From NCBI GenBank assembly GCA_905250055.1, contig CAJNOF010000042.1, positions 481,805 to 545,804 of the forward strand: a DNA stretch of 64,000 nt, in the 5' to 3' direction. The notes under the pieces are model-generated. The model saw nothing but the letters and a program-made list of their open reading frames with translations. It ran no database searches and was not told the origin of the DNA. Position 1 is the first letter of the stretch, and each line of letters opens with the position of its first letter. The DNA is from Rotaria sp. Taxonomy: Eukaryota. This document shows, piece by piece, positions 1 through 32,200 of this stretch. Both the position numbers and the translations under genes were made by a program.

Positions 1-2902
1 TCGGTAATATTGAATTTTTGAAAGAATGCAAAGATAAATCGCAAGATAACATTTAATGATTTGTATCCAGGTGTAAGTGATGCTAATTGTGTGTAATGCT
101 GATGTTGATCAATAAACATACTATCAACTTCATCGACAATTGCCGCTTCATAAGGTCTGTGAGCACGTACTTCGGTTTGCAAATAAAATTCAGTGCGTAG
201 TAGATCACCAGCAAAATGATTGACCGTTCCGTAGATGATGTGAACATTGTAGTTTGGGCTGTCAGGACGATCATAACAGTTGTGTCCAACCGTCAGATCA
301 AACATTTGATAGAAGGATGCAAATTCCTCGGCATCACGTCGAGCAAGAATTTCTGAAGTGGTAATTATATCGACACGTTTGTTCAATGGAGGAAGGGAAA
401 GATAAACAGCCACTACAGTAGAAAAATACAAGATACATTAAATAAAAATAAACCTTTTTCTTTAAATTTTTGTCCAGTTGCAACCGACCGATCACACTGA
501 TTTGTGGCGGCTTCTTTACATCCGTATTTCGACACAATTTTTTTAAACGTATTGCAACGGCTTTTGGCTGAATTCTGAACTGTACGCTTTTAAATTCAAT
601 CGAACACGTTCGGTTAAAACTTTTTTCAAAACTCAATTGCAAGAATTTCTTCCGAACTAAATAGAATCGATCAGAGCTCAACGGAACTAGAAAGAATAGT
701 TACCAGAAAAAAGTAAACTTATCAGTTTCGACAGCCGCAACTTTGAGTCTCGACTGATATTGATAAGGTTAGGCTATTCTCTGCTTGTTTTCAATGCATT
801 ATTATCATGTATGATGAGTCATTGCACGAGAGCCAACATCAACTTTGCGCAAATCAAGATACTTATGTTCTGATTTTACTCTCAAATAGTTCTAAATGGT
901 TAGTTTTGGGATGAAAAATTTGAGCGATTTACAGGACAAGTTGAGGACAATTTATTTTGCAACGAACTTTTATAGCCCTCATCCAATGGAGTGCGAGGAA
1001 AACGATTCTTTAATTATTAGCTACATAAATCTTCCCGATGACGTTATAAGTTCTTTGATATATTACTTGGTGGGAAATCAATAAAGACATTCTTTCAATG
1101 ACTTTTCAAGCATTGAAATGAAAATGTTTGAACAAACAACAATGCTTTCTCTTAGGTGCGAATTCATAGTAATGACTGAAAATACCTTTACGGTCAATAT
1201 CAATATTTAATTTCATTACCATCCATATTAATACTAGTCAACATGTTTGATCTCAACAGCGAATTGTATTTGTATTGGTAAATATCTAATCATTAATAAG
1301 TTTTATAGAAGATAAATTTTCCTACAAATAATTATAAATATATTTTTGTCTAAAACTTTTTGAATTTTTCGGTCTAGCATCATCAGATGATATTATCACC
1401 TTTTTCATGCACTTAAAACTATCTTACATCGTTAATGACTTTTATTGATCTGAGAAAAACATATTTGTTATCTAATGAACATTTTTGACAAGATACAAAT
1501 ACAGAAATATAGACAGTTAATTTTATCCTTTGAAGAATGGGAATAACGTAGTTGATAGAACTTAAAAGTTATATATAAGAATAAGAATTCAGATTGAATT
1601 ACTGAGAACTCAATAGTGGGATATTATCCAACATGAGTTTAAATTTTGAACTTACACATAGCCACAATAATGGATTTGCCCTCGCCAGTGCGTATTTGTG
1701 CTAATCGTCCTTGACCTTGACGTTGATTTTCAATTAGAAGAAGAAGAGATAGAATCTGAATATCTCTTGGACGATATTGTTCGTGAAGATGTGCTGCTTG
1801 AACAATGACAGCAATCGTATGAAGCTCGTCGTTGTTCACCTGACGTTGCCGAATATCTGAAGATTTCCATCGAGATATTTGTGTTTCGTAATGTTTCATC
1901 ACCATTCGAAATCGTTGTTCCAAGTCGGTTATATCCAAAGATGAATTTTCCTGAGCTAGTTCTTGAAGAAGCATTGAAACTGATTTAGATTTACCTTTTT
2001 CGTCAATAATTTTAGTCACTTCATCCATCCATTGAAGTTCTGAATGCATAGTAATTGCGTTGACAATTCGTTCAATATCCCATGGAAATGATATTTCATT
2101 GGTTAAAATCATTTTAACAACGAGTAACGCTGTTTTCAGTACTGAGACATTTTGTATTTGTAAACTATTGAACATCAGCTCGAGTGATTGAATTGCGTAA
2201 TAGTCCCAATCTAGTTCAGATAATTCGGCAAGAATGGCACTCAATAGGCTTCGATCATCATCTGGTGATTTTTCAACTACATCAAACAAAAATGGGTCTA
2301 TTGCAGTGGTTGAACATGGTTCAAATGAAAGAAGTTGATGAGTCACATAACTATCATTAAGGGATGGCTGGTCGACCATACTAAAAGAAGAAGCAACATA
2401 TCATCTCTTTATAATAAGATCTGAATCTGGAAAAAAGTAAACAGTACCTATTGTTTTGATTATTCAATTGAGGTTGCTGTGGGGATGAAGCGGAATTAAA
2501 AAGTGTCGATGGTGTCAAGTCCATAGTCATAGCTGCTTTTGGGATGATTGCTGGTGCGAAATCGAACGATATTGGATTATTATTGTTATTATTCGACTCA
2601 GATAGAAGTGGAGTGTGAAGATAATCGAGCCATACTTCACATGGAATTTCACCTGATTGTATTACTTGAAGAATCTTATCTACTGGCAACATTGGTACAG
2701 TGACGATATCACGTGTTAAAAGTTCATGTAAATAGCATAGGTTCTTTTCCAACTGTTCTGGCATTGATTTTTCGAATTGACTTGTCCAATCGATGATCGT
2801 TTGTAGTAAACAGTATTTCTGCTCATATGTCCATGATTCCAATGCAAACAAAAGTTCATATACAACTTTATAATGATCCATAGCTTGTTTGGATGATGCC
2901 AT
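1..2902 (-). CDS. SecA-DEAD-like ATPase domain protein (partial; continues beyond window start); exons approx 2902..2448, 2380..1656, 412..1
   Basis: ORFs 2381..2908(-) and 1639..2379(-) join through a 67-nt GT-AG intron (donor aat ag|gtactg, acceptor ttttag|t atg gtc). Exon B ends ...GEGKSIIVAM|gtaagt (phase 1). The acceptor tttctactgtag at 414-413 opens an exon running to position 1. The joined protein reads ...RPRDIQILSLLLLIENQRQGQGRLAQIRTGEGKSIIVAMLAVYLSLPPLNKRVDIITTSEILARRDAEEFASFYQMFDLTVGHN...IIYGTVNHFAGDLLRTEF...RPYEAAIVDEVDSMFIDQ. This is collinear with the bacterial SecA motor: RHFDVQLLGGMVL...[43 protein letters not shown]...GLTVG...ITYGTNNEFGFDYLRDNM...[25 protein letters not shown]. 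About 350 aa N-terminal extension has no recognisable family. The first in-frame ATG is at 2902-2900, with an upstream in-frame stop at 2938. Confidence 0.75.
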
Positions 2903-4273
2903 GATCAAACTGTCTCTTGTTTCACTAAAAATGTATCATTTATACACACTGGTTAATCATCACATGTCACCATAGGTTACCGTAAAGTTGCCAAACCAAA
3001 CAAAATCGATAAGAAAGTGTGTTTGCTAAGCGGTAGAATGTGCGCTTTTTACGGTTTTAAAAACAAAATTATTTTGAAAAAGAAAGCGAGTCGAAAGACG
3101 ATGACTCTCACAAACTTGCTTTTTACAACGAAAACAATTGTTTTTCTACCTTCTTTGAAGGTAAAAAGCGCACATGTTAACGCGTTAAAATGAGGCCTTA
3201 TCAAGAGTGAGTACTGTGCGCAGACGTTAGCACGTGGAATTCTATCGTATGTGGACGTGACTTGGTTGAAAAAAGAAAAGCTCAATAATCATTAACATCC
3301 ACCTACATTCTCAAGAAAAGAAGTCATGAAGCTCACATTTTAATTAAGCATTACTCTAGCCTAATCTGACTTTCGCCTATGTCAAACTGGCATGGTTCAT
3401 ATTCATCCTTCGATCTAGGATTGGACTAGTTCATTTTTTAAATTCTTCTAAGCAAATTAGAGAGTGGACATAGTCTTAACATCAACGCTTGGATTAATAC
3501 ATATGAAAAAATAAGAATAATAATCTACTTTTCGCCAATCGATTCTTGAAGGGGACCTACTCATAATAGGTTTATCACTTAACGTAGTCCAATCTAGCTG
3601 AATTCCTTAGCAATCAGTGACCCTCATGAGAAACGCTTTTGATTTAAACTTTAGTTCGATATACTAAACTAGACCATACTTCTAGCTTATTTAAATTCTA
3701 TTGATGATCTTCAAACGAACTTTTATGTCTTCTTCACTAGAAGGTGTGCTCAGCTGCGATATAGTGACAAATGACTCTGCGGATGTTCCTGATTACTAGT
3801 TTATCAAATGTTGGAATTTCTCTCGTTATATTTTTACTTATTGACTAGGTACACTCTTTTGGTTCCATGAAATATTTTATTCGGTTCCTGAACACATATA
3901 TATGTGTGATCGTTCTTGTTACATCGCGGAATTATTCTTGTGTATCTCTTCTCTCTATTCTTCATCTAACGGAGATACTATCACTATTATCCTTTTCATT
4001 GCTCATGCACCATTACAAGAGCTCGTGGTGGTTTCAAATTAGTCCCTTCACCGTTATTGATGAATATATTCGTTAAAGCAAACTTTATGGAAAAAATGAC
4101 AACTACAATTCCTGAACTCTGTTTTTTTATATGCTCTGTATCGTCTCTAACATCCTGCACTGGTGGAAGCCCATTGTACTGATTCTGATGTTCATATCGG
4201 TTATGCCCCTCTGTATCAATTACATAATTAGTCGAATTATAAGTCTGGATTCGCTCCGTAATTAACATTATTA

Positions 4274-4606
4274 TTGAATGGACTCTTACTACTTTCGGGT
4301 AGGCGTGGGTGTGGGTGTAGGTATTTACGTCAACTACATCAATTCCCACACCCGGAGCACTTAGTCAAAAGGAAAAGACCGTCAAATGAACCTACACCGG
4401 TACGGTTAATATCACGGTACTTTTCATCTTTGATTCCTTCAACTGAAAACGAGCAGCATCCAACAAGATGTTGTTACGTTTGTAGTCATGCACAAAACGA
4501 ATCTAATTGCACAAGAAATAAATCGACACACGAATGTACAAGTTGCAAGGTTGCACTTTGTGTTGATCCATGTTTTCGTGTATATCATACCTTGCTAAAC
4601 TTTTAA
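4274..4606 (+). mobile_element. Remnant of piggyBac-type transposase C-terminal cysteine-rich zinc-finger domain (degraded element)
   Basis: The ORF ends ...KRKRPSNEPTPVR...RCCYVCSHAQNESNCTRNKSTHECTSCKVALCVDPCFRVYHTLLNF*. The CxxC...CxxC...CxxC...C(F)..YH pattern at the extreme C-terminus, preceded by a basic NLS-like stretch, is characteristic of piggyBac-family transposases and PGBD proteins. No intact DDE domain is visible upstream, so I treat it as a fossil. Confidence 0.45.
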
Positions 4607-7141
4607 GCGAAACTTTGAATTTCAAAAACCACTTTTGTAGGATCTCATTTGTTGCGCTTTGCTATTAAAAAAACAACTTCTGTTTGCTATATAAAATAAT
4701 AAAACATGTTTGTCGCAGATTTTTTATATTATCCTTAAATGTTTGTGAATATTTGAAGGTTATAACGTGAAAAGTTCACTGTTTATTTTCAAGCAAAAGT
4801 TAACGATGAAAGGGTTAAACAAACAGGCGGTACAAAAGTTTCTGAATAAATGTCGGTTCATTTTTGATCGACTAAAGCATATGTGAACAAAATCAGAAGT
4901 ATTTGTACATAATCTATGTTGAAATAATATGTGATATGTAAAAGGAAACGAATACCAAAGAAAGTACTGAACCCACATTATGTTGCGACTTCTTTCGGTA
5001 CATTTCATGAGATGGTGTTTATCTTTTTTTATAACAAATTACCGTCTCTATTCTCAACAAATCATGTAGAAAACACTATGGAAATCTTTGAAAATACATG
5101 GAGGGAACTCACTATCTGATCTCTAGCCATTTTTAGATTACTGTTTTTATTATTTTTGCTCGCTGTTCAACTTTGTCATTTCAACTATTTTTATCCAAAA
5201 ATGGCGCCATTCGATTCTTAAAAAAATTTTATTGGCTCATCATCGTTTTCATATTCAGATTTGACATTATTTCTTTCACCATTGCTCGTTAAATTGTCGA
5301 TCACACCATCTAACATGATACTGTATGATTTTCTAGTAAGTTTGTAGAGAATTGAATGGCTTATCCAACTGAGAAAAGAGCAGCATCATACTATCAGTCG
5401 CAATGAACAAAATACAAGAATACTCACCAGAGATACATGTTTCCGTGCCCACTACTTTGAGCTGTTTTTACCAGTCACATTTTAGTCCTAACTAAAGATG
5501 TGCTCTCTACTGAGAGACAAAATATGATAAAACTTCTTTGAATATACATTTAGAAAGAGCTTTCGAGTTTATTCACCCATGTTTTAGTCAATGAAAAATG
5601 GACCAACATTTGTGCAGGAACTTTTGCATCACTGGTTAACACAAAAAATATGTAAAATGAAAGATTTCTCATAGATTACAGTTGCTTTTCACGATAATCG
5701 AACATCAGAATAAGAACCTTTCAAATTTCCGCATTTCAAACGGAAATTGTTTATTTTGTCTTTGCGCGCCCTACTATTTGTTTTCATTGTTATTATTCCC
5801 TCATTATTTTTCTTGTTGTTTTAATTCGCGTTTTTTAATTTAACATTCTTATCATTATAATCATTGAATTAATCGACAAACAAGTCTATTTTACATATTC
5901 ATGATATTTACGGCAGACTTTATGCACTACTGTATATTAATCAACTAACAAACAATGATTTTGACTATATTTCAAAATTACAACTTCATCATTTTTGCAA
6001 AAAAAAAACTCTAAAAAACCTAATGCCTGTTATTCTCGATTACTAAATGTGTGTAATGGGAAGGAGTGGGGAGCCGCAAAAACATGCTTTTAAACTTACA
6101 CTCACCATTTTCTTCGACAATGAATGTGAATTCCTCAAAATCGTCAATTAACCGTTTGTTGTATGATTAAATGTAACAACATATGGCATAGATAAAGGAT
6201 TCGTTACTTACCCAAATACGCAACTCTAATCAACTTGAAATATTGCCATCACTTGATGTTTACACAGTTATATGTTGTTATGCTTTTTCATCTCAATGCA
6301 TCACTTATTCGATATGCATCATCGTATTTCTACTAACCATACATCAAATATGGATCATAGAGTCCCCACAAAACAATTGATTGACCTTACTGACTATCAT
6401 CCAATCATATGAATCTACATGTCGAAAAAATCAATAAATTGCGCAGCAGCAAGCACAACAAGCTGCTGCTCGACAAAATAATTCACTGGTGCATCAACAT
6501 TTTATACAAATGAATCGAAATCAATTAATAATGGCGTCGACTGCATCGCAGCACGCAGGTCAACATCGTCATCATCAAGTACTATTTAAGCAAAAATAAA
6601 ATTCAGAATTATAGCTCATAATTAGCAAATGATTGATATTTGGTCAGCTTACCTATAAATAGTTGAAATGAAGCGGAAAGGTCTCTCAATTAGAAGAACC
6701 AAAATTGCAATAACTTTAGTTGAATTTCATCAGGTATCAGTATTTTGTAGAAATATGCGTCAATTTAACAAAGAAACATAACTCGAAAAGCAAGAAAAAA
6801 AATCTCAAAAACTTCTTCCGATTAAACTAAATTTCACAAAGCATTGTTCTTTTTTTTGTATTCTTTCATTTTAATTCCTTTAAGCTTGAGAATTCGACAA
6901 TACATAATTACAAAACAATACTTTCAAACATCATCTTAGATCGATGTTCCATACCAATTTATGTGACTTAAAGAAATTTTTAAATTTTAATGCACAATCA
7001 CAGATGATTATCAACGAACAATATGATTACGGCATATCTATAAATATGAATATAATCAAGCACACGAAAAAGAATAGACTTTGAACATAGTTTCAAAGGT
7101 AAATACATTTATTCTTCCGTATGTCAAGTAAATGCATTTCA

Positions 7142-7350
7142 TTATGAGTACAGAGCTTGTCCACGCAAAACGTTATTCCGTCACGCTTTGTTTGTTTCAT
7201 TACGTACAAATGATTCAATGTTTAAGAACAAATGTTTTTGCAGTTTTGGACAAAAAATTGTGCTTTTCAAAATGAGAAATTGCAAAGCTGTTCACCACTA
7301 CTCATTCACTATAAACAGAGCGTGACGGAATAACATCTTCCATGGACAGG
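7142..7350. repeat. Short inverted repeat (about 45-bp arms, about 110-bp spacer)
   Basis: The reverse complement of 7142-7190 (gtacagagcttgtccacgcaaaacgttattccgtcacgctttg) matches 7306-7350 (aacagagcgtgacggaataacatcttccatggacaggctctac) with several mismatches. Confidence 0.4.
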
Positions 7351-8079
7351 CTCTACAAACATTTTTTAAGGTCATAAATAATTTTGTTTTTCAAAAATAA
7401 TTATATTTGATTTTGTCTGTAGAAAATTTTCTCTTCAATAGAATCAAATTATACTGTTTTTTACTATTGATAAAACGTGGTTAAGTGTTGAACAACTTTG
7501 AAAATAAAAAGAATAATTTTATTAATTGTTGACGCACTACAAATATAATTAATTATTTCTTATTTTAGAAGAAAAAAAGGCAATCATTTTTTTCTAGGTC
7601 AATGCATATTTTAATTGAAATTAATAAGATCTATAGTTTGACACGCACGTAATGCGGCATCGAAAAAAATAAAGCTGAGAATAGATTAAGGATTGGCAAA
7701 AGAGAGATTTTTTTCAGAAAAAAATGGACACTTTTTTACGCATTTATGATGTTTTTCGAAAACTTGTTTTTGATAAATATCGAGAAACAGGCAATTTTAA
7801 TCTTACTTGTGTATGCTTTGTTCTTGTAAGATATTCGTTGATTGGCGAGATCGATTAATATTCTCTATTTTGTCTTCAACAACTCTACTATGACTGATAA
7901 AAATGCACGGTAAAAATTGTTGACTTGTTTTTTTATCTAAATCATCATTCGTCAAAAGTTCACTTTTTCTCTGACTTGACAAGTCTTTTTAGTCACGCAC
8001 ATGTAATAATTCAGGACCAAGATGAGATCATTAGAGCTGTGTGTCATTAAAGTATAGTGTTTATTTAGATGAGTTAAAA

Positions 8080-9054
8080 ATGGCTTCTGATATAGCCACG
8101 GCTCTTTATATTTTCTCTATTGGAGATCGTCTTTATCAAACTGTCGCTTTGTCAATTATTATTGTAAGTTCAATTGGAAATGTTTGCAATTGTTTAGTTT
8201 TTCTTTGTACTCCACCTTTGAATAAACATCCAAATGCTTTATTCATCATTGGATCATCAGTTGGTAGCTTCTTTTTTATCAATATTGGTCTTCTTTCAGC
8301 TGTTATACGAGTATATAGTGGTATTGATCCATCGAATCGATGGTTATTTTGGTGTAAAGTCGGTACTTGGTTTACTTATTCGGGTGGTTGTTTTAGTTTT
8401 ATGTGTAATTGTTTTGCAGCTCTTGGTCAATTTCTTTTAACATTACCAAGAGCCAAATGGCATCGATTAATCACACATATTCGAGCACAAATAATGATTT
8501 TATGCACAGCAATTATTTGGCTTCTTATTTTCTTACCATTTCCTATATATTATATACACATTCGTTCATCAAGTACAACATTTGTCTGTACTAGTTCTTT
8601 CTCTTTAATCAGTCTCTACGGTACCTATTGGATTATAATTGGTTATTATTTTTTACCAATTATTCTCATATTCACTTTATTTTTTTTGACTTGGTATAAT
8701 TTACAACAACTTTTAAGACGTCGTCGTAGATTAGATGCTGCAGTAACTCGAATGATGCTTATTCAGATGTGTGTTTTATTGATCAGTGGTATACCAGCAG
8801 GCTTTTACTGTTGTTATATTTTGGCTACACAATATGTTTTGAAGACAAGATTACGATTAGCATATGAATATCTTGTTTTACTTGTTCTTACTCTACTTAC
8901 GTATTTTACTAACGGAATTTCTTTTTGGATATATTTATTTGCATCTAAAACCTTTCGAAAACATATCAAAGACTTTGTTTTCAAATTTTCAATATTCAAA
9001 CATCGAGTAGGACCATTACCTGCTCAAGTGACAAGAACAAATGTAAATCGTTAA
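8080..9054 (+). CDS. Intronless rhodopsin-like orphan 7TM receptor (GPCR)
   Basis: Single ORF. The real ATG at 8080 (MASDIATALYIFSIG...) lies downstream of the GTG used by the ORF track. There are seven hydrophobic segments. A basic RRRRRLD stretch follows TM5 and looks like intracellular loop 3. The motif NGISFWIYLF in TM7 is NPxxY-like. The tail is KTFRKHIKDF. No introns. Confidence 0.65.
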   Translation: MASDIATALYIFSIGDRLYQTVALSIIIVSSIGNVCNCLVFLCTPPLNKHPNALFIIGSSVGSFFFINIGLLSAVIRVYSGIDPSNRWLFWCKVGTWFTYSGGCFSFMCNCFAALGQFLLTLPRAKWHRLITHIRAQIMILCTAIIWLLIFLPFPIYYIHIRSSSTTFVCTSSFSLISLYGTYWIIIGYYFLPIILIFTLFFLTWYNLQQLLRRRRRLDAAVTRMMLIQMCVLLISGIPAGFYCCYILATQYVLKTRLRLAYEYLVLLVLTLLTYFTNGISFWIYLFASKTFRKHIKDFVFKFSIFKHRVGPLPAQVTRTNVNR

Positions 9055-9924
9055 AATCGTTTTAATACATGTTTAAATTATATTTATTGGCAAATGTTTA
9101 TCTTAAACTATTTGCATATAGAAACACAATTCATCATTCCTTACTTGTCATTTGTTTTATTTATTGAAATTCTTTTATCAATAAATAAATTTTCATCATC
9201 AATCAATGGAGAAAAAAACTGAAATATCGATTCAACAAGTTAATATATTATGCTTCTTACATGCGGCAAGTTCCCAAGAAAACTTGCTTATGCCATCAAG
9301 GAGCAACATGAATTTTCTTACAATGTGCACTTGTCTCGACATTTTTCAAATGATGCTCTATGTCAAAGTTATCATAAGCCCCGTGAAATAGGAGTCAAAC
9401 TTTCTTTTTATATCAAATCATTAATCTGATAAGTTTTGTTCAATCTAATATCGTTATTCTCTGATGAAAGATTATTAATCCTTTAACTTTGATCAATTAA
9501 TTTTTCAAGATGTCAACTGGCACATTATACTAAGTCTTGGAAGATATATAGATTGATATGAATTGATTCTATATCTACCATTATAATCCTCTAGTGATTC
9601 TCTATCTATACTATATAGCTTAGGTTTTTTATTTCTTTATATGTGTACACAAGGGTGTAAGTGTGGGTGTGCATGGTTATTCTTCATAAAAACTCTAGAC
9701 CCAGACTCACCTACATCCTGATCCCACACCCATACCGTCATACACAAGAGATGATCTGAAATTCGTACAATCAGTCAGGAAAAACCTGAGGACTAGTGCC
9801 AAAGTGTGAACTTTATTTGATTTTTATTGTTCAATAAAGCATGTATCATACAGAAATATCGCTCACTTAAATGTATTGATACGTATGCCTGTTGTGTCTT
9901 CTGTATTCATTAGGAAAAAAAAAT

Positions 9925-12364
9925 CTATAGTTGATAACGTTCTGGTGCCATATCGATAAATTCATCAGAAATTTCTGGAATTTCCAGATCGCTAAGGGAA
10001 TCAATAGTTGATTGTGAAATTGGAAAATCCCAACATTTGAACAGTGGCACCAGATTGTATTCTACTTGACGCGAGAAAGTTTCGATCCAATAATCGATCT
10101 TTTCTTGATCAGTGTCAAGCTTTGGTTGGTCTTGTTCGTATTGACGAAAGACAGCCTTATAGCTGTCCCATCCAAACTCTCGTGCCAATTGTGCATATAT
10201 GAAAAGAGCAACACCAGGGTTCTCTTTCCAGACATCAAAACTTGATCCCTTCTTTATATACTTCCATGTATTCTTTATTTGATCCTTGAGCCAAGGATGA
10301 ATCCATACTTGATGATGGCAAATAGTATCCATCGCATGCAAAGTGAAAATATTCACGGTCACTTCATCAGCACCATCGTATGCTAAATGTAATGTTTGTA
10401 ATCGATTTGATTAAGTGTAGCAACAAATCGCATACATACTCCAATAATCTCGTTGCATATTATGACCGATCTCATGAAATAGATCCCATGCACCATTCTT
10501 TTCTAGCTTGTTGCTATTTAGTATGTACCCTTCAGAGAATGGATCAGATACATCCATATGTGTGACAATAGGATAACCACTGTCTAAAATAAGCATTCTT
10601 CTTCAGCAGAGAGCGAAGAAATTCATTACGGGTTCAATATCCTTACGCATGTAGCCAAGTGAAGGTTGCTCGTCACATACAATACGTTCACGATGTGTCG
10701 GTTCTGTACCTCTTAGCTCATGATGAGCAAGTACAACAGCATCCCAATACTGAAGAACTCGATCTAATTGAATACTATCCAAATGAAGTACACTCTTCGA
10801 AGGAACATTAAACACAATATGTCGACCAGCTATATCTGCCCAACGACCTTGTGCGTAGTGATGCCGGTATTACCATGTTGTCGCTCGATTGGAATCAGTG
10901 AGATCGTATGTAGGCGCCAGAACAACATGATGCAAATGAACAGTGATAGAGTTCATTTCATCTTCAGGACTTTCAAGGAAAAGAAGGCCACCAAAAGCTG
11001 AACTCAGTCGAACATGATTGCTAGTCAATGATTTGCAGACAGAAATGCATGACCATCGACGAAGTTCATCGCAGCTCTAATCAGTATATATTTCTATTGT
11101 GCTATAAAAGCAATTCTCGTGAGAAGACATACTTCAAGATCATCGCTGTGACAACCTATTCGCGCTGGGCATCCAGTTGCACCTACTTGTTCTAATACAT
11201 CAATCTGGATGGAAATATCTGCAGCCACATAATATCCTAAGAGAAAGCGAAGACATTGCGACGTATATGCAGGAGAACATTCAACAGTTTGATTATCTTC
11301 TTTCATACCTGTCGAGAACCATTCGCTGAAATTTGATTGAATATGGCACTTAACATTCGTTTCAGTCGATGGTGGTTGATTGAAATCACGCGGAAAATTC
11401 GTCACACCTAGAAGTCGTACTCTACGCATTGCATCTCAAATGACTTACATTTGCTCACCAGAAGCCTTGATACCGGGTAGTACACACAAAATACTACAGA
11501 TACCTATTGATTGTTCTCGACACTATCTATCTTGAATTGGACAATTAATCGATGGAATAACATCGCTATCAGCATTTACGACAGTATTCTGTAGAGTTTC
11601 AACTGGTACACCAGACAATGTATCACCGAACTCTTTGATAGCCAATGCAACGGTGGTCAAGTATTTGATACTATCCGAATAGTTGACAAGATTTTGCACA
11701 ATGTGATAGACATTTTTAAATGCAACTAAGTCGGGTTGAAAAGGAATTGGATCGGGACAATCAATACAATTACCCGTAATTTTCACACCAATATAGTCAC
11801 AGAAACGTGCAAATGGGAAATTCGAGAGAAGTGTACCTTCGTTATGTTCTAGTCAACCCCAGGCAGTTGCTCCACAAATCAGAGAACCTCCATCTTGTAA
11901 ATATGCACACTATAACAAAACACTGATATTTAACAGATCGATAATGAAAAAACAATTATATGTACCAGATCACTCATAAAGGAATCATTCTTCGCCTCAC
12001 GTCCATTCCATATCAGTATTTTACCAGCTCGTGCCACATTATCCATCGAATCTGTATCATTGATCGATTCGAATTCAGTATCATATCCGCGAGCGAGCCA
12101 TTGTAGACAATTTTCAACAAAATCTTGATCTTCGGTTTCATCATTAAGAAAAATCTCGGTACAGCCGTTAAGTGCAAATACTAAACATAGACTGTGACCA
12201 AATTGAGTGGCCACAACGATCACATTGTTGAAGTCTTCACTACACAGAACAGTACGTGTATTATCTGTCATTGGAATGAGAGTTCCTGGTGAGCCAATAT
12301 TACTAAGAGAATCCACACCATCAAACAAAATTTGAGATACTTGATCAAATTCATCGTCAGCCAT
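9925..12364 (-). pseudogene. TCAF-like / peptidase M60-like domain gene, apparently disrupted (in-frame stops plus one frameshift)
   Basis: The real ATG is at 12364-12362 (MADDEFDQVSQILFDGV...). A 56-nt intron follows (ctg|gtacat...ttgttatag). Downstream a HExxH motif reads WDLFHEIGHNMQRDYW, which is M60/enhancin-like as in TRPM8-channel-associated factors. A plausible 49-nt intron removes the TAA between 10411 and 10362 (tgg a|gtatgcg...cattacatttag|CA). The remaining in-frame TGA near 11850 could be removed only by a 9-nt 'intron', which is too short. A TAG/TAA/TGA cluster sits at 11430-11525 with no usable GT donor. The frame changes between ORF 11094..11429 and ORF 10603..10815. Confidence 0.5.
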
Positions 12365-28206: not shown

Positions 28207-29219
28207 ATGACTTCAATGCAGACAAGAGAGTCACGTTATTATCCAATCGATGCAGCTCAATCAGTTCCTCCAAGATCCTTGCGTTTTCGTTCTGGACCAC
28301 TACCACATAAGATCGACCTTCGTCCATGGATGTCTCAGATTGAGCAACAAGGCGACATTGGTTCGTGGTATGTACTTTCATGTGTGGTCTATTTCATTCT
28401 TAAAAAAAAAGTTGTTTTGTTTTCTTTTGCAGTAGTGCCAATGCTTTAGCCGGTGTTCTAGAATATTTGATCAAACGTAAATATAATATTGATATGGATG
28501 TATCTCGTTTATTTATCTATTACAATTCTCGACGAATTGATTTTCAACATTCAATATTAACAGATACTGGAGCCACTCTAACAACCAGTGCCAAAGCAGT
28601 ACGTAAATACGGTGCTTGTGATGAAAAATTTTGGCCATATGATATAAGCTTAGTGAATAAACGGCCGACACCAAACGCATATCGAGCAGCACATCGTTTC
28701 ACTGCCAGACCAGTTAAAATTCCAATAAACTTGCCATCAATAAAAGCATCATTGGCTAATGGTCTACCGATTGCGATTAGTATAATTTTGCGCAATTCAG
28801 CAGGTACTGAGGTGAAGAAAAATGAGGGCTATATATCCATTCCCAATCCCTCATGTACAACAATAAGAAATTCGGAATGGTACTCCGTTGTTATTAGTGG
28901 CTATGATGAAAGAACACAGCATTTTCTAGTACGTAATTCCCGGGGCGAACAATGGGTAAGCAGATATAAAACTACATCTAAAATAATTTCAATCATGTTT
29001 CTCTGGGGTCTCAAAGGCTATTTTTATATTCCATATCAGTATCTATCTATACGATCACTCGTTTACATGGATGACAACGCATGGACCATCAAAGATATCC
29101 TTTACCGCACTCAACATTTGCCGACCATGCTTGTTTTACGTTCAGCCAGACACCGTCGACACAGGAAATATCTACACACTGCATATGATTCGCATCAACA
29201 AAGACGAAACGTACACTAA
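28207..29219 (+). CDS. Papain-fold (family C1-like) cysteine peptidase paralogue B, apparently intact; 3 exons, no signal peptide, no propeptide
   Basis: Exon 1 is 28207..28367: MTSMQTRESRYYPIDAAQSVPPRSLRFRSGPLPHKIDLRPWMSQIEQQGDIGS(C), with donor tg|gtatgt in phase 2. Exon 2 begins after ttttgcag at 28433 with t agt gcc and reads C-SANALAGVLEYLIKRKYNIDMDVSRLFIYYNSRR...GYISIPNPSCTTIRNSEWYSVVISGYDERTQHFLVRNSRGEQW|gtaagc. Exon 3 begins after tctcaaag: GYFYIPYQYLSIRSLVYMDDNAWTIKDILYRTQHLPTML...RRNVH*. The residue positions are Q (-6 from Cys), C in GSC, H in HSIVISGY and N in RNSRGEQWG. The H-N spacing is 16, as in papain. Confidence 0.6.
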
Positions 29220-32200
29220 GGTCTGAGGTGTATGAGATTGGGCCGACGAAAGAAGTTCAACCACTATCCAATCGGTTTTTAGTCGAGGTCATGTGCAATG
29301 TATAGACCTAAATAAACTATGAATATTTTGAAAAGAATTCATGCCCTCAGTTGATTGCTACGAAGTTGCTGCACTGTTACGGCATCGTTCTAATAAATAC
29401 TGCGGCCCGTCTCAGGAACACCAGAAAAATTGATTTTCGAGTTTCGACTCGAAATCTTGTCAAGAGACAGACCTTAACAGGAATACTTTATTGTCAAATT
29501 TTCAGATTCTATCACTGTTCCTATCTGAAGATACAACTTTGGTAATAGTGTGTCTTCCACATTACCCATATAAAACACTGTATTCGCTGTTATCATTCAA
29601 GGATAGAAGCAAGTCAAAAGATATGAAACTGCTATAATAAATTATTCTCCTTAAGGTCTCCCTTTTAGTAAAATTTCGAGTCTAAATTTGAGAATCAATT
29701 TTCTGTTGCTCCCCAAGGGAACCATGGCGTTTATTTAAAAAATATTGTTAAAGTACAGTAACTACATAGTAATAAGCTAAAGTCATGAACTCTTTTCCGA
29801 GTATTCAAAGCTCATTTAGGCTTACATAATTTATATGGTCTTGACTGAAAAGCGATTGAACAGCTGCTGGACGTACCTCGTTATTTCTGGGTGTATGTTC
29901 GCGTAGAATGAGGATGTGTGACTATGAGTGTATACCCATAGCACTCACTCATACGCAAAAATCCTAAAGAAAAATTGTAAAGTATAATTGTTCAAAAAAT
30001 AAAAGTTGTGCTTAAAGTGAAATAAAATAATATATTAAATTAAAAAGTTTTGACATCGATCAATATTTCTTAAAAAGTCTAAGATAAAACAATGCAAAAA
30101 AACAATCGCAACAGTTTCTCATGTTGAATTATAAAACTAGTTCATGTATTTTAATAATTTCTCGCACTGTTAAATGATTTACAATTCGAATAACTTCAGA
30201 CGACATGCATCGCTTATTTTGTATGTATATATTATTTTTTCATATGTGAAACATATGTATGTTGTCGGTTACTTTTTTTTATGTTAATTATGATATTTCG
30301 AATAAAAAAGACTTTTTCTAAACTTAGTCCGTAAAGTTCTCTATAAAGTCTTGTGAAAAGAGTTTTATAATTGGAAAATGATTTGTGCTTTCAACAATAT
30401 TATACTTCAAAAAAAATTTGTAGTAAAAGGCACATCGTAGTTTTCTTTTTTATAAAATTTATCGTTTCTCTTCTTCTGACTAAAGATGCTTCAGAGCATT
30501 CTAAAAAGACGTTTTTTATGTTTTTCAAATGTACTCATTCTATAAACAAGATCATTAAAACATGAATGAAGAAAAACATTCAAAAAAAGTGTTCTATTCA
30601 GATAGACTTACAATCTGATAACAAAAGATATTTTGCACAATTCACTGAGTTTCTCTTAGGTTACAAAGGGCTATATTCATTTGTTTTTTTTTGTAATGTG
30701 ATCAAAGAGAAACACAGTATGATAAAAGCTTTAAACAGTATCTTGAAAGTAGACTTCTTGAGAATTTAGCACTGTTGACCAAGCAAGTTTTTCTAGTTAT
30801 TCTTTTAAAAGACTGTCTTGTGACAAATTTTGTAGAGAATTTCAAGAATTATATTTTGAGAAAAGAACTCAAGTCGAAATATCTAAAATTGAGCGAAAGT
30901 CCTTGAATATGCTTTCCTCTTCCCCCATTGTTATATGGTTAATAGCAAGTGTTTTGCAATTTATATATAAAAATATGTTATAGAGTAATGCATGCATGAT
31001 TTAGTCCCTCAACTTTGCTTTTTATTTGTATTATATTAATACATCTGTTTTCAATAGAATAATCGCAAGCTCTGTTTGATTAGAACATCGCCTCAACAGA
31101 TTATTATATCATCATATAAAGATAGATATTCATTTTATCTAACAAATCGTCGTATAAATAAATACTTTAGATATGATACATAATTGCAAAGAAGCAAAAA
31201 AACAAAGAATAAAATACTACAATCGGATTGAATCATTTCAATATAAAATAAAATCTAATGAAAATAAGTCACTAGATGAATATCAAGTTCATCATCTATG
31301 TTGTCTCAATGAGAACAATTAATAATTGAATGTACGTTTCAATTATATTATAGAATCAGCATTCTAACATTAATAATGAAGAAAATCATATTGTGAGTCA
31401 GAAGCAAAACTAATATATCAATAATATTAGAAGTCAGTTTGATTTAATAGATGTTATTATTCATATGTATTACCCATGGCGCATGTCTACTCAGACTATT
31501 AGTACTATATAGCAGTACTCATAAGAACAGGTATGATAACGCTTTCAACTTTCCTGTTTCAGCTATAAACAATTGCAGAGAGTATTTTCTATACAAATTC
31601 GAATGAATTATTAGAAGAAGTGCGAATAAATCGAAAAGAAAGCTATTTCAAAATATTTTTTTACTTATCAAAAAAAAATTTTGCGACGTCATCTATGATA
31701 CAAATTTATCTGATAATTGAGACCGATTTCGATTCTGTAAGTAGTACAGGCAGCTCAAATGTATCAAATATTACACGAAAAAATCGCAAATGTTTTTATG
31801 GTATCAGTTTAAATAAATTTCAAAAATATTCATCTGTTTGATACAATACATTACGAAGTAAGACTTTCAACATATAACACCGGTCTAGTAAACATTACAG
31901 TAATTAATAAAACGACGGTAGTTGCTCAATAGTTATTACATGTGTATATATTATCTCCTTTATTCAAAATGTTGAAAAGAAGAATCATTGACTCCAGAAT
32001 AGAAAAAAGGAACTTGATGATGTTCTTATAACATTAACTATTCTTTAGAAATTATAAACATATGATTGATAGGTGTCAAATAATTGATTAAATAATAGTA
32101 ATGATGTTTTTTTGAGCTATTGTGAAATAACTATCTTAATGATGATTCATAAGTAACTACCTTTTTCTCATAAAATACACCTCTATTCAATGAAAAAATT

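What the first reader, a model, noticed from the sequence alone, without database searches (positions are those of the whole stretch)
1..2902. Intron-containing metazoan gene encoding a SecA-type DEAD motor fused to a novel about 350-aa N-terminal region
From the sequence: after splicing the three exons (introns of 67 nt and about 1.24 kb, both GT-AG, phases consistent), the protein is collinear with the first nucleotide-binding domain of bacterial SecA over more than 150 residues. The shared features include the RxxDxQLL pre-Walker segment, the GEGK[ST] P-loop, LARRDAE, GLTVG, YGTxNxFxxDxLR and the DEVDSxxIDE Walker-B/DEAD region. From established knowledge: SecA is a bacterial and plastid protein-translocation ATPase, and canonical animal genomes are not expected to carry it. 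The introns and the AT-rich codon usage, which matches neighbouring host genes, argue against bacterial contamination. This looks like either an ancient or recent horizontally acquired gene that has been domesticated, or an undescribed eukaryotic family that reuses the SecA motor, for example as a STAND-like or translocase-like module. The gene is truncated by the window edge, so the preprotein cross-linking and helicase-wing domains cannot be assessed.
Basis: partly seen in the sequence, partly recalled or inferred. Interest (0 to 1): 0.85.

Follow-up and report, generated by a model that had tools for sequence, protein, structure and literature searches.

The report
Rotifer gene with SecA-like motor
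This is a real, intron-containing bdelloid rotifer gene whose protein carries the ATPase motor of the bacterial secretion enzyme SecA but lacks the parts that dock onto the secretion channel; it belongs to a little-studied family shared by intracellular bacteria and a few eukaryotes, and it is already present, mis-modelled, in public annotation.

Summary
Splicing 2902-2448, 2380-1656 and 412-1 (minus strand, two GT-AG introns) gives an open 530-aa frame. It matches Pfam SecA_DEAD at 112 bits, against 26 bits for generic DEAD.

The window is Rotaria sp. Silwood1 or a near relative, and it also carries nicastrin and TMEM17. A public gene model, P0131, uses the same two introns. The full gene, rebuilt from the 98%-identical public locus, encodes about 1615 aa:
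- a rotifer-specific helical N-terminus;
- an intact SecA-type motor (NBD1, PPXD-like insert, NBD2);
- a helical region;
- one hydrophobic glycine-rich module;
- a C-terminal region of about 400 aa.

It is not a Sec translocase. It has no SecA_SW domain and scores 206 bits against NCBIfam cut-offs of 725-1493.

It belongs to a monophyletic SecA-like family. That family is found in giant proteins of obligate intracellular bacteria (Rickettsiales, Legionellales, Chlamydiae, Bacteroidota symbionts) and, patchily, in Paramecium, cyprinid fish and bdelloids. The motor-plus-hydrophobic-module architecture is shared across these groups.

The most likely origin is an old horizontal acquisition that predates the bdelloid radiation, followed by duplication and intron gain. 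Function is unknown; my inference is a membrane-anchored polypeptide-clamping ATPase.

The finding is moderately interesting and only partly new.

The parts
2448..2902 (-). Exon 1: start codon at 2902-2900, aa 1-151 plus 2 nt of codon 152. It encodes helical domain A (aa 1-104 = 2902-2591) and the start of a disordered N/S/Q-rich linker.
   Evidence: Translation. Identical to the public model P0131. AF2 model: six helices at 2-104 with pLDDT about 80-89. There is an in-frame stop upstream of the ATG.
2381..2447 (-). Intron 1, 67 nt, GT..AG, phase 2.
   Evidence: Read-through ends in a stop (ORF 2381-2908). The same junction is used in P0131. GC is 0.284.
1656..2380 (-). Exon 2: aa 152-393 plus 1 nt. 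It encodes the rest of the linker (to aa ~188), helical domain B (aa 190-290 = 2268-1966), and the start of SecA-type NBD1 from aa ~291 (1965 downward).
   Evidence: Domain B has pLDDT about 75-80. Pfam SecA_DEAD starts at aa 291.
1672..1686 (-). Walker A P-loop, GEGKS (aa 384-388).
   Evidence: Read directly from the sequence. Invariant TGEGK[ST] across the family and canonical SecA.
413..1655 (-). Intron 2, 1243 nt, GT..AG, phase 1. It splits the helix after the P-loop (IIVAM|LAVYL).
   Evidence: Read-through gives ...AMCKFKI-stop. There is an intron at the same codon in the paralogous loci L004 (~1.25 kb) and L005 (~67 nt). Divergence between the window and the public locus is 1.2% here, against 0.3% in the CDS.
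1..412 (-). Exon 3, truncated by the window edge: aa 394-530, the rest of the NBD1 core up to just past Walker B.
   Evidence: The gene continues in public locus L006 to about 1615 aa in total.
123..134 (-). Walker B / DEAD-equivalent, DEVD (aa 487-490).
   Evidence: Read directly from the sequence. VDEVD is invariant in the family and in SecA.

Best explanation
SHOWN. The window holds the 5' third of a nuclear gene of the bdelloid rotifer Rotaria sp. Silwood1, or a very close relative. The full gene encodes a protein of about 1615 aa with five parts:
- a bdelloid-specific all-helical N-terminus, made of domain A, an ~85-aa disordered linker and domain B;
- a catalytically intact SecA-type SF2 motor (NBD1 with a PPXD-like insert, then NBD2, then a long scaffold-like helix);
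- a helical, weakly TPR-like region;
- a single hydrophobic glycine-rich module (WWKTVFIFVMGVALIVGGAFLC...LGTSMILDGLIDVY);
- a C-terminal region of about 400 aa.

It belongs to a monophyletic 'SecA-like' family that is distinct from the Sec translocase. That family lacks the SecA wing/scaffold (SecA_SW) and SEC-C parts. It is carried mainly by giant proteins of obligate intracellular bacteria (Rickettsiales including Wolbachia, Legionellales, Coxiellaceae, Chlamydiae, Bacteroidota symbionts). It also occurs patchily in eukaryotes (Paramecium, cyprinid fish, bdelloids). The combination of motor and hydrophobic module is shared by bacterial and eukaryotic members.

INFERRED, ORIGIN. The gene entered the bdelloid lineage by horizontal transfer from an intracellular bacterium, or via a protist, before Didymodactylos and Rotaria diverged. 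It then gained introns and a new N-terminus and duplicated into at least three paralogue groups.

INFERRED, MECHANISM. This is the weakest step. ATP binding and hydrolysis at the NBD1/NBD2 interface would open and close a SecA-like clamp on an unfolded polypeptide. The hydrophobic module would anchor the motor in a membrane. The motor would work without SecYEG, to thread, extract or insert a protein. The N-terminal helical domains would act as lineage-specific adaptors.
For: Gene model and SecA specificity.

Host context: nicastrin and TMEM17 lie in the same window. The locus matches a 661-kb Rotaria sp. Silwood1 contig at 98.3% identity and has the same neighbours (Peptidase_M60, a 7TM-like gene). 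The public model P0131 is identical to the window protein apart from one substitution (placed at codon 241).

Conserved intron position in paralogues.

Constraint: between the window and the public copy the CDS has 5 differences in 1592 nt (4 synonymous, 1 not). Intron 2 has 15 in 1243 nt and the upstream kb has 9 in 1000 nt.

Full-length architecture. Pfam on orthologues finds SecA_DEAD, partial SecA_PP_bind and P-loop_SecA, and no SecA_SW.

All catalytic motifs are intact.

Family distribution.

Trees: the family is separated from canonical SecA at 100% bootstrap. Rotifers are monophyletic at 100%. They sit in a mixed bacterial/eukaryotic clade supported at 98-100%.

An HMM of the hydrophobic module hits the same giant ORFs downstream of the motor in Cytophagales, Legionellaceae, Rickettsiaceae, Wolbachia and others. 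Rotifer and Paramecium post-motor regions align with hhalign probability 96.7%, E=3.5e-10.

The N-terminal 330 aa has only 21 hits in 1.84 billion representatives. The ones I could identify are bdelloid.
Against: - No expression data were available, so splicing rests on gene structure, conservation and an independent gene model.
- The trees are neighbour-joining on corrected p-distances. Nodes inside the mixed clade are weak (15-58%), so neither donor nor direction of transfer is resolved.
- Gomez-Valero et al. 2014 (PMC4256840, Table 5) concluded the opposite direction, eukaryote to Legionella, for an L. fallonii SecA DEAD-like protein.
- Only the C-terminal half of the PPXD profile matches, so a polypeptide clamp is not established.
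- SecA derives from DEAD-box helicases, so an RNA-dependent activity is not excluded.
- The HMM hits to the hydrophobic module may be inflated by composition, and their E-values refer to a small local database.
- Membrane insertion is inferred from a single hydropathy peak.
- The N-terminal AF2 model is only moderately confident (mean pLDDT 62).
Confidence: 0.6

Rival explanations
1. The family acts as an immune or conflict sensor-effector, analogous to STAND or helicase-type receptors. The variable N-terminal helical domains would be adaptors, the SecA-like NTPase the switch, the TPR-like region a sensor, and the hydrophobic glycine-rich module a membrane-damaging effector. This overlaps with the best explanation on what the gene is and differs only on what the motor is for.
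For: The family is multi-copy. There are at least three paralogue groups per bdelloid genome, tandem paralogues 91% identical in Danio aesculapii, and several copies in Paramecium. The N-terminus is lineage-specific and fast-evolving. Some members have TPR repeats (P0134, P0152), with weak TPR_11 hits in rotifer proteins. The family is shared between hosts and intracellular bacteria, as many conflict systems are.
Confidence: 0.2
2. It is an SF2 nucleic-acid helicase or RNA-dependent ATPase that merely descends from SecA, with no role in handling polypeptides.
Confidence: 0.12
3. It is a genuine Sec-pathway SecA (organellar, plastid-type or endosymbiont-type) working with SecYEG.
For: UniRef and JGI name relatives 'Protein translocase subunit SecA'. 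NBD1, a partial PPXD and NBD2 are present.
Against: There is no SecA_SW or SEC-C domain in any family member examined. NCBIfam SecA and SecA2 models score 126-206 bits against cut-offs of 725-1493, and they match only profile positions ~20-585, the motor region. The family is separated from canonical SecA at 100% bootstrap on a long branch. About 1000 extra residues have no SecA counterpart. From established knowledge, rotifers have no plastid and animal mitochondria have no SecYEG.
Confidence: 0.02
4. It is bacterial contamination or a chimeric assembly, or a decaying pseudogene.
For: The closest non-rotifer relatives are bacterial. The public annotation of the gene is broken into two models and skips 103 codons.
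Against: The gene has two spliceosomal-type introns, one at a position conserved in paralogues. It is physically linked to nicastrin and TMEM17. An independent 661-kb contig carries the same locus. The reading frame is intact over about 1615 codons in the DNA, including the piece the annotation skipped. All catalytic motifs are intact. Coding divergence is lower than non-coding divergence.
Confidence: 0.02

Closest known systems
SecA preprotein translocase ATPase (bacterial/plastid; Pfam SecA_DEAD + SecA_PP_bind + P-loop_SecA + SecA_SW; e.g. E. coli SecA 2fsf, M. tuberculosis SecA2 4uaq)
   Different: There is no helical wing or two-helix-finger domain (SecA_SW) and no SEC-C zinc tail. It scores far below the curated SecA and SecA2 cut-offs. 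It has about 290 extra residues at the N-terminus and about 780 at the C-terminus, including a hydrophobic module. It is encoded in an animal nucleus with introns.
'SecA-like helicase-related' or 'SecA DEAD-like' domains of intracellular-bacterial effectors: Amoebophilus asiaticus effectors (Zhang et al. 2012, PMC3482391) and L. fallonii lfa2470 (Gomez-Valero et al. 2014, PMC4256840, Table 5)
   Same: This is probably the same family. The closest bacterial relatives found here are Cardinium, Bacteroidota or Cytophagales MAGs, Legionellaceae, Coxiellaceae, Rickettsiales and Chlamydiae. They share the motor-plus-hydrophobic-module layout.
   Different: Those reports are single-line domain mentions with no architecture, structure or function. 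I did not have the lfa2470 or Amoebophilus sequences, so identity with this clade is inferred from taxonomy and domain name, not tested. The rotifer protein has its own N-terminus and introns.
Other non-Sec SecA_DEAD proteins: 'secondary SecA_DEAD domain proteins' next to type I secretion genes (Kamneva et al. 2015, PMC4452313); SecA-like domains in Omnitrophota giant proteins (bioRxiv 10.1101/2023.11.21.568195); and in actinobacterial giant toxins (Kaur et al. 2021, PMC8195603)
   Same: In each case a SecA-type motor is used outside the SecYEG pathway. It is often found in very large proteins, and the authors propose that it helps export the protein itself.
   Different: These come from different lineages and contexts (free-living or predatory bacteria, T1SS neighbourhoods). 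No relationship to the present clade was tested. None is eukaryotic.
Horizontally acquired, intron-bearing genes of bdelloid rotifers (from established knowledge: a large share of bdelloid genes is of non-metazoan origin)
   Same: The nearest relatives are non-metazoan. Introns have been acquired, the gene is linked to core metazoan genes, and it has expanded into paralogues. The neighbouring genes (M60, papain-like) have similar composition.
   Different: I found no paper that lists this family among bdelloid foreign genes. The acquisition is old, since it is shared by Didymodactylos and Rotaria, rather than recent.

Membership tests
Canonical SecA translocase | NBD1 (SecA_DEAD) with Walker A and B | tested here: met
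   PF07517 at 111.8 bits, E=5e-32, on the window protein. GEGKS is at 1686-1672 and DEVD at 134-123.
Canonical SecA translocase | Preprotein cross-linking domain (SecA_PP_bind) inserted in NBD1 | tested here: inconclusive
   It lies beyond the window edge. In orthologues, in a paralogue (the L004 composite) and in other family members only part of the profile matches: positions 21-109/110 in P0121, otherwise about 47-110/110, at 20-47 bits. The AF2 model shows an insert of about 140 aa at the right place.
Canonical SecA translocase | NBD2 (P-loop_SecA) with motifs V and VI | tested here: met
   Met outside the window, in the same gene (locus L006) and in orthologues. PF21090 gives 39-54 bits in rotifer proteins. 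ATNLAGRGTD and GRAGRQGQPGS are present.
Canonical SecA translocase | Helical scaffold/wing domain with two-helix finger (SecA_SW, PF07516) and SEC-C tail | tested here: not met
Canonical SecA translocase | Whole-protein score above the curated family cut-off | tested here: not met
   The best score is 206 bits against a cut-off of 862 (NF006630). TIGR00963 gives 164 against 800. The SecA2 models give 126-190 against 725-1100.
Canonical SecA translocase | Works with SecYEG in the same compartment | not testable with these tools
   This needs biochemistry or localisation. From established knowledge, animal cytosol and mitochondria lack SecYEG.
SecA-like motor family of intracellular bacteria and some eukaryotes (unnamed) | Motor groups with the family and apart from canonical SecA | tested here: met
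   The family node has 100% bootstrap. The rotifer clade has 100% and lies inside a mixed clade supported at 98-100%. Profile scores are 350-1145 bits for family members against about 330 or less for true SecA.
SecA-like motor family of intracellular bacteria and some eukaryotes (unnamed) | Hydrophobic glycine-rich module 300-900 aa downstream of motif VI in the same protein | tested here: met
   It lies outside the window, at aa ~1180-1230 of the reconstructed protein. The HMM hits rotifer, Paramecium, EukProt and about 25 bacterial giant ORFs.
DEAD-box RNA helicases | Best match to the DEAD/Helicase_C profiles; no SecA-type insert | tested here: not met
STAND NTPases (NACHT/NB-ARC type) | STAND-class P-loop NTPase domain | tested here: not met
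   No NACHT or NB-ARC hit was found. The NTPase is an SF2 RecA pair. Any resemblance is architectural only.
Bdelloid horizontally acquired genes | Closest relatives are non-metazoan, and the gene is integrated in the host genome with introns and linked to metazoan genes | tested here: met
   The direction and donor of the transfer are not resolved.

The most novel reading that the evidence does not exclude
The family would be a self-contained, SecYEG-independent protein-translocation or membrane-insertion machine. A SecA-type motor is covalently tethered to its own glycine-zipper-like membrane module. That module would oligomerise into a conduit, so the motor threads polypeptides, or the giant protein itself, across or into a host membrane. 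Intracellular bacteria would deploy it as an effector, and bdelloids, ciliates and fish would have captured it for their own use, possibly in defence.
Probability: 0.1. Interest if true: 0.85.

Novelty: new variant of a known kind. Interest (0 to 1): 0.55.

Why it matters
SecA is the textbook motor of bacterial and plastid protein export, and it is defined by its partnership with SecYEG. This gene puts an intact SecA-type motor in an animal nucleus. More broadly, it points to a coherent, uncharacterised family in which that motor has lost its channel-docking parts and is tied to a conserved hydrophobic module.

The family is spread across many obligate intracellular bacteria (Wolbachia, Rickettsia, Legionella, Coxiella relatives, Chlamydiae, Cardinium-like symbionts) and a few of the eukaryotic lineages that host such bacteria. 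That distribution makes it a candidate host-manipulation or host-defence machine, and a tractable test of what a SecA motor can do without SecY.

There are also two practical points. Pipelines currently name these proteins 'Protein translocase subunit SecA', which is misleading. The public model of this particular gene is split and lacks 103 codons.

Tried and rejected
- Foldseek against PDB for the N-terminal model: nothing below E=2.
- PADLOC defence models: only two hits, both just under the 0.001 E-value threshold and neither with a matched stretch that passes on its own.
- Homologue search with the C-terminal 462 aa: only three hits, two bdelloid and one unnamed JGI protein, because the word index limits sensitivity. 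A local HMM was needed to see the module in bacteria.
- Literature searches for SecA with bdelloid or rotifer, 'subunit SecA-like', and SecA with zebrafish or Paramecium: no paper on the eukaryotic family.
- Plastid-type SecA origin: not tested by phylogeny because no plastid sequences were in hand. Rejected on domain content and scores.
- Identifying a specific bacterial donor: the internal nodes of the mixed clade have 15-58% support, so none is named.
- The Anopheles members as evidence for an insect gene: rejected as independent evidence, because they are sister to Wolbachia wCon at 100% and may be Wolbachia DNA or a Wolbachia-derived insertion.
Full report
**1. The observation**

On the minus strand the three exons are 2902-2448, 2380-1656 and 412-1. 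They are joined across a 67-nt and a 1243-nt GT-AG intron and give an uninterrupted 530-aa frame that runs off the window. Retaining either intron ends the frame within a few codons.

The spliced protein matches Pfam SecA_DEAD at 111.8 bits (E=5e-32; aa 291-497 = profile 24-214 of 290). Generic DEAD reaches only 26.3 bits. Every PDB sequence hit is a SecA or SecA2 chain. BLASTP against a gammaproteobacterial SecA gives 36% identity over 181 residues, query 324-496 against SecA 46-218.

**2. Whose gene it is**

The window also carries nicastrin (two exons), TMEM17, a Peptidase_M60 fragment and papain-like genes.

The closest proteins are from bdelloid rotifers. One of them, P0131 from Rotaria sp. 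Silwood1, is identical to the window protein over all 530 residues except one K/R change. The reverse complement of window 1-12000 aligns to that gene's locus on a 661-kb contig at 98.3% identity, with the same neighbours.

So this is a rotifer chromosome, not a contaminant. An independent gene model already uses the same two introns.

Intron 2 interrupts the helix after the P-loop (IIVAM|LAVYL), a stretch that is contiguous in all bacterial relatives. An intron sits at the same codon in two paralogous loci, about 1.25 kb long in L004 and about 67 nt in L005.

Between the window and the public copy the CDS differs at 5 of 1592 nt (4 synonymous, 1 not). Intron 2 differs at 15 of 1243 nt and the upstream kilobase at 9 of 1000 nt. 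The counts are small, but they point to constraint.

**3. The whole gene**

The public locus lets the gene be completed past window position 1. It encodes about 1615 aa. The public annotation skips 103 codons that are intact in the DNA; these hold the end of the PPXD-like insert and motif III. It also splits off the last ~350 aa as a separate gene.

The orthologues in R. sordida (P0121, 1503 aa) and Silwood2 (P0122, 1546 aa) have the same layout.

Pfam finds SecA_DEAD, part of SecA_PP_bind and P-loop_SecA, and never SecA_SW or SEC-C. NCBIfam's SecA and SecA2 models reach 126-206 bits against cut-offs of 725-1493, and they align only to the motor region of each profile.

All catalytic motifs are intact: Walker A and B, TGT, ATNLAGRGTD and GRAGRQGQPGS.

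About 420 residues of the model have no SecA counterpart. After NBD2 the model has:
- a 45-residue helix;
- a helical domain;
- a small beta element;
- two hydrophobic helices.

The full-length protein has one strong hydropathy peak, at aa ~1180-1203.

**4. The N-terminus**

Relative to SecA the extension is about 280-320 aa, not 350.

The AF2 model has mean pLDDT 62. It shows a six-helix domain A (aa 2-104) and a five-helix domain B (aa 191-290), both with pLDDT about 75-89. Between them lies an ~85-aa disordered, N/S/Q-rich linker that contains intron 1.

A full HMMER pass over 1.84 billion representative proteins found only 21 hits for the first 330 aa. The ones I could identify are bdelloid paralogues.

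**5. The family**

A profile of the non-canonical hits retrieves a set scoring 350-1145 bits, clearly above true SecA at about 330 or less. The set includes:
- many bdelloid proteins of 1100-1600 aa;
- several Paramecium species;
- Danio aesculapii (on a 74-Mb chromosome, one intron, with a tandem paralogue) and Pimephales;
- two Anopheles entries and a EukProt protist;
- Legionella clemsonensis, Legionellales, Chlamydiia, Cardinium and Bacteroidota MAGs.

A scan of one genome per bacterial species returned, as best matches (30-40% identity over 500 aa), almost only obligate intracellular lineages. These were Rickettsiaceae, Midichloriaceae, Bandiella, Wolbachia wCon, Rickettsia, Holosporaceae, Legionellaceae, Coxiellaceae, Chlamydiae or Parachlamydiaceae, and Cytophagales or Bacteroidota. 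The ORFs are 1100-2580 aa long.

Neighbour-joining trees with bootstrap separate the family from canonical SecA at 100%. Bdelloids are monophyletic at 100%, with paralogue groups that each contain Didymodactylos and/or Rotaria. The bdelloids sit in a clade supported at 98-100% that mixes these bacteria with Paramecium, fish and the EukProt protein. The Anopheles entries are sister to Wolbachia at 100%. No bacterial sister of the rotifers is supported.

An HMM of the hydrophobic glycine-rich module hits the same giant bacterial ORFs 300-900 aa downstream of motif VI. Rotifer and Paramecium post-motor regions align with hhalign probability 96.7%. The motor-plus-module architecture is therefore ancestral to the clade. 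It did not arise as a fusion in the rotifer lineage.

**6. What is already known**

- Zhang et al. 2012 (PMC3482391) list 'SecA-like helicase-related domains' among Amoebophilus effector domains.
- Gomez-Valero et al. 2014 (PMC4256840, Table 5) list L. fallonii lfa2470 [SecA DEAD-like] among genes they judged to be acquired from eukaryotes.
- Kamneva et al. 2015 (PMC4452313) describe secondary SecA_DEAD proteins next to type I secretion genes.
- SecA-like domains have been noted in Omnitrophota giant proteins and in actinobacterial giant toxins, with a proposed role in self-export.

I found nothing on the rotifer, fish or ciliate members. One Daphnia transcriptome table lists a 'SecA DEAD-like domain' transcript.

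**7. Interpretation**

The identity is well supported. This is a domesticated, multi-copy bdelloid member of a non-translocase SecA-like family.

The origin is most simply an old horizontal transfer. The evidence is the patchy eukaryotic distribution, the broad diversity among intracellular bacteria, and the age of the gene, which predates the Didymodactylos/Rotaria split. The direction of transfer is not resolved.

The mechanism is inferred. The motor is intact and keeps SecA-specific features, so ATP-driven clamping or threading of a polypeptide is the default reading. The hydrophobic module suggests this happens at a membrane, without SecYEG. Two readings remain open: an immune-type role, suggested by the expansions, the variable N-terminus and the weak TPR signal, and a nucleic-acid-dependent activity.

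**8. Verdict**

It is less surprising than it looked, for three reasons: the host is a bdelloid, the gene is already in public annotation, and the domain has been noticed in symbiont effectors. What appears undescribed is the family-level picture: a SecA motor without its SecY-docking parts, coupled to a conserved hydrophobic module, and shared by many intracellular bacteria and a few host lineages. Interest 0.55.

Noticed in passing
window 1-64000 (shift near 30000): Base composition drops from about 0.30-0.39 GC in the first ~30 kb to about 0.23-0.29 for most of the remainder (0.318 in the last 2-kb bin). Gene GC3 differs sharply between the two parts. The SecA-like gene is 0.285, M60 0.349 and papain-like 0.289, against 0.05-0.08 for nicastrin and 0.10 for TMEM17. 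The left part may be a foreign-gene-rich compartment.
   Followed up: partly
window 23089-23658 (+) and 28467-29219 (+): Two paralogous papain-like ORFs lie about 5 kb apart. The first matches Peptidase_C1, with a weaker Peptidase_C39_2 hit. The second gives no Pfam hit although its sequence is clearly similar.
   Followed up: no
window 9925-10362 (-); L006 1500-2980: A Peptidase_M60 (enhancin-like) gene lies next to the SecA-like gene. Its composition is similar, so it may be another non-metazoan-type gene.
   Followed up: no
L006 10001-16465 (public Rotaria sp. Silwood1 locus of this gene): The public model P0131 skips 103 codons that are open in the DNA (the end of the PPXD-like insert plus motif III). 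It also ends early, and the last ~350 aa are annotated as a separate 348-aa gene.
   Followed up: yes
P0147, P0149 (Anopheles arabiensis / quadriannulatus UniRef entries) and L024 (Wolbachia wCon): The Anopheles 'proteins' are sister to a 2583-codon Wolbachia ORF at 100% bootstrap. They are probably Wolbachia DNA or a Wolbachia-derived insertion in those assemblies.
   Followed up: partly
L008 (Saccharibacteria bin Umea3_bin-0930) and L018 (Methanobrevibacter MAG Po218_bin58): Two of the best 'bacterial/archaeal' matches sit in bins whose taxonomy is implausible for this family. In the tree L008 groups with Rickettsiales at 82% bootstrap, while L018 falls among gammaproteobacterial MAG sequences with weak support (20-27%). 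Both contigs are probably mis-binned.
   Followed up: no
L007 5001-8930 and 13076-13930 (Danio aesculapii chromosome LR812512.1): Two SecA-like genes lie in tandem, 91% identical at the protein level. The first has one short first exon and one large exon; the second runs off the locus.
   Followed up: partly
P0130 (1472 aa, ENA metagenome): A single protein contains two SecA-like motor units. The first is partial and starts inside the PPXD-like region; the second is complete. They are separated by ankyrin-like text.
   Followed up: no
L002 431-7663 (Logan SRR24390608, 26% GC): The SecA-like gene appears cut into ORFs of 833, 68 and 550 aa separated by gaps of 38-64 nt. The upstream ORF carries the hydrophobic module. 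This could be tandem copies with tiny introns in an unidentified AT-rich eukaryote, or frameshifts in a symbiont.
   Followed up: no
window 15125-15850 (+): A 241-aa ORF has no Pfam match. It was not examined further.
   Followed up: no
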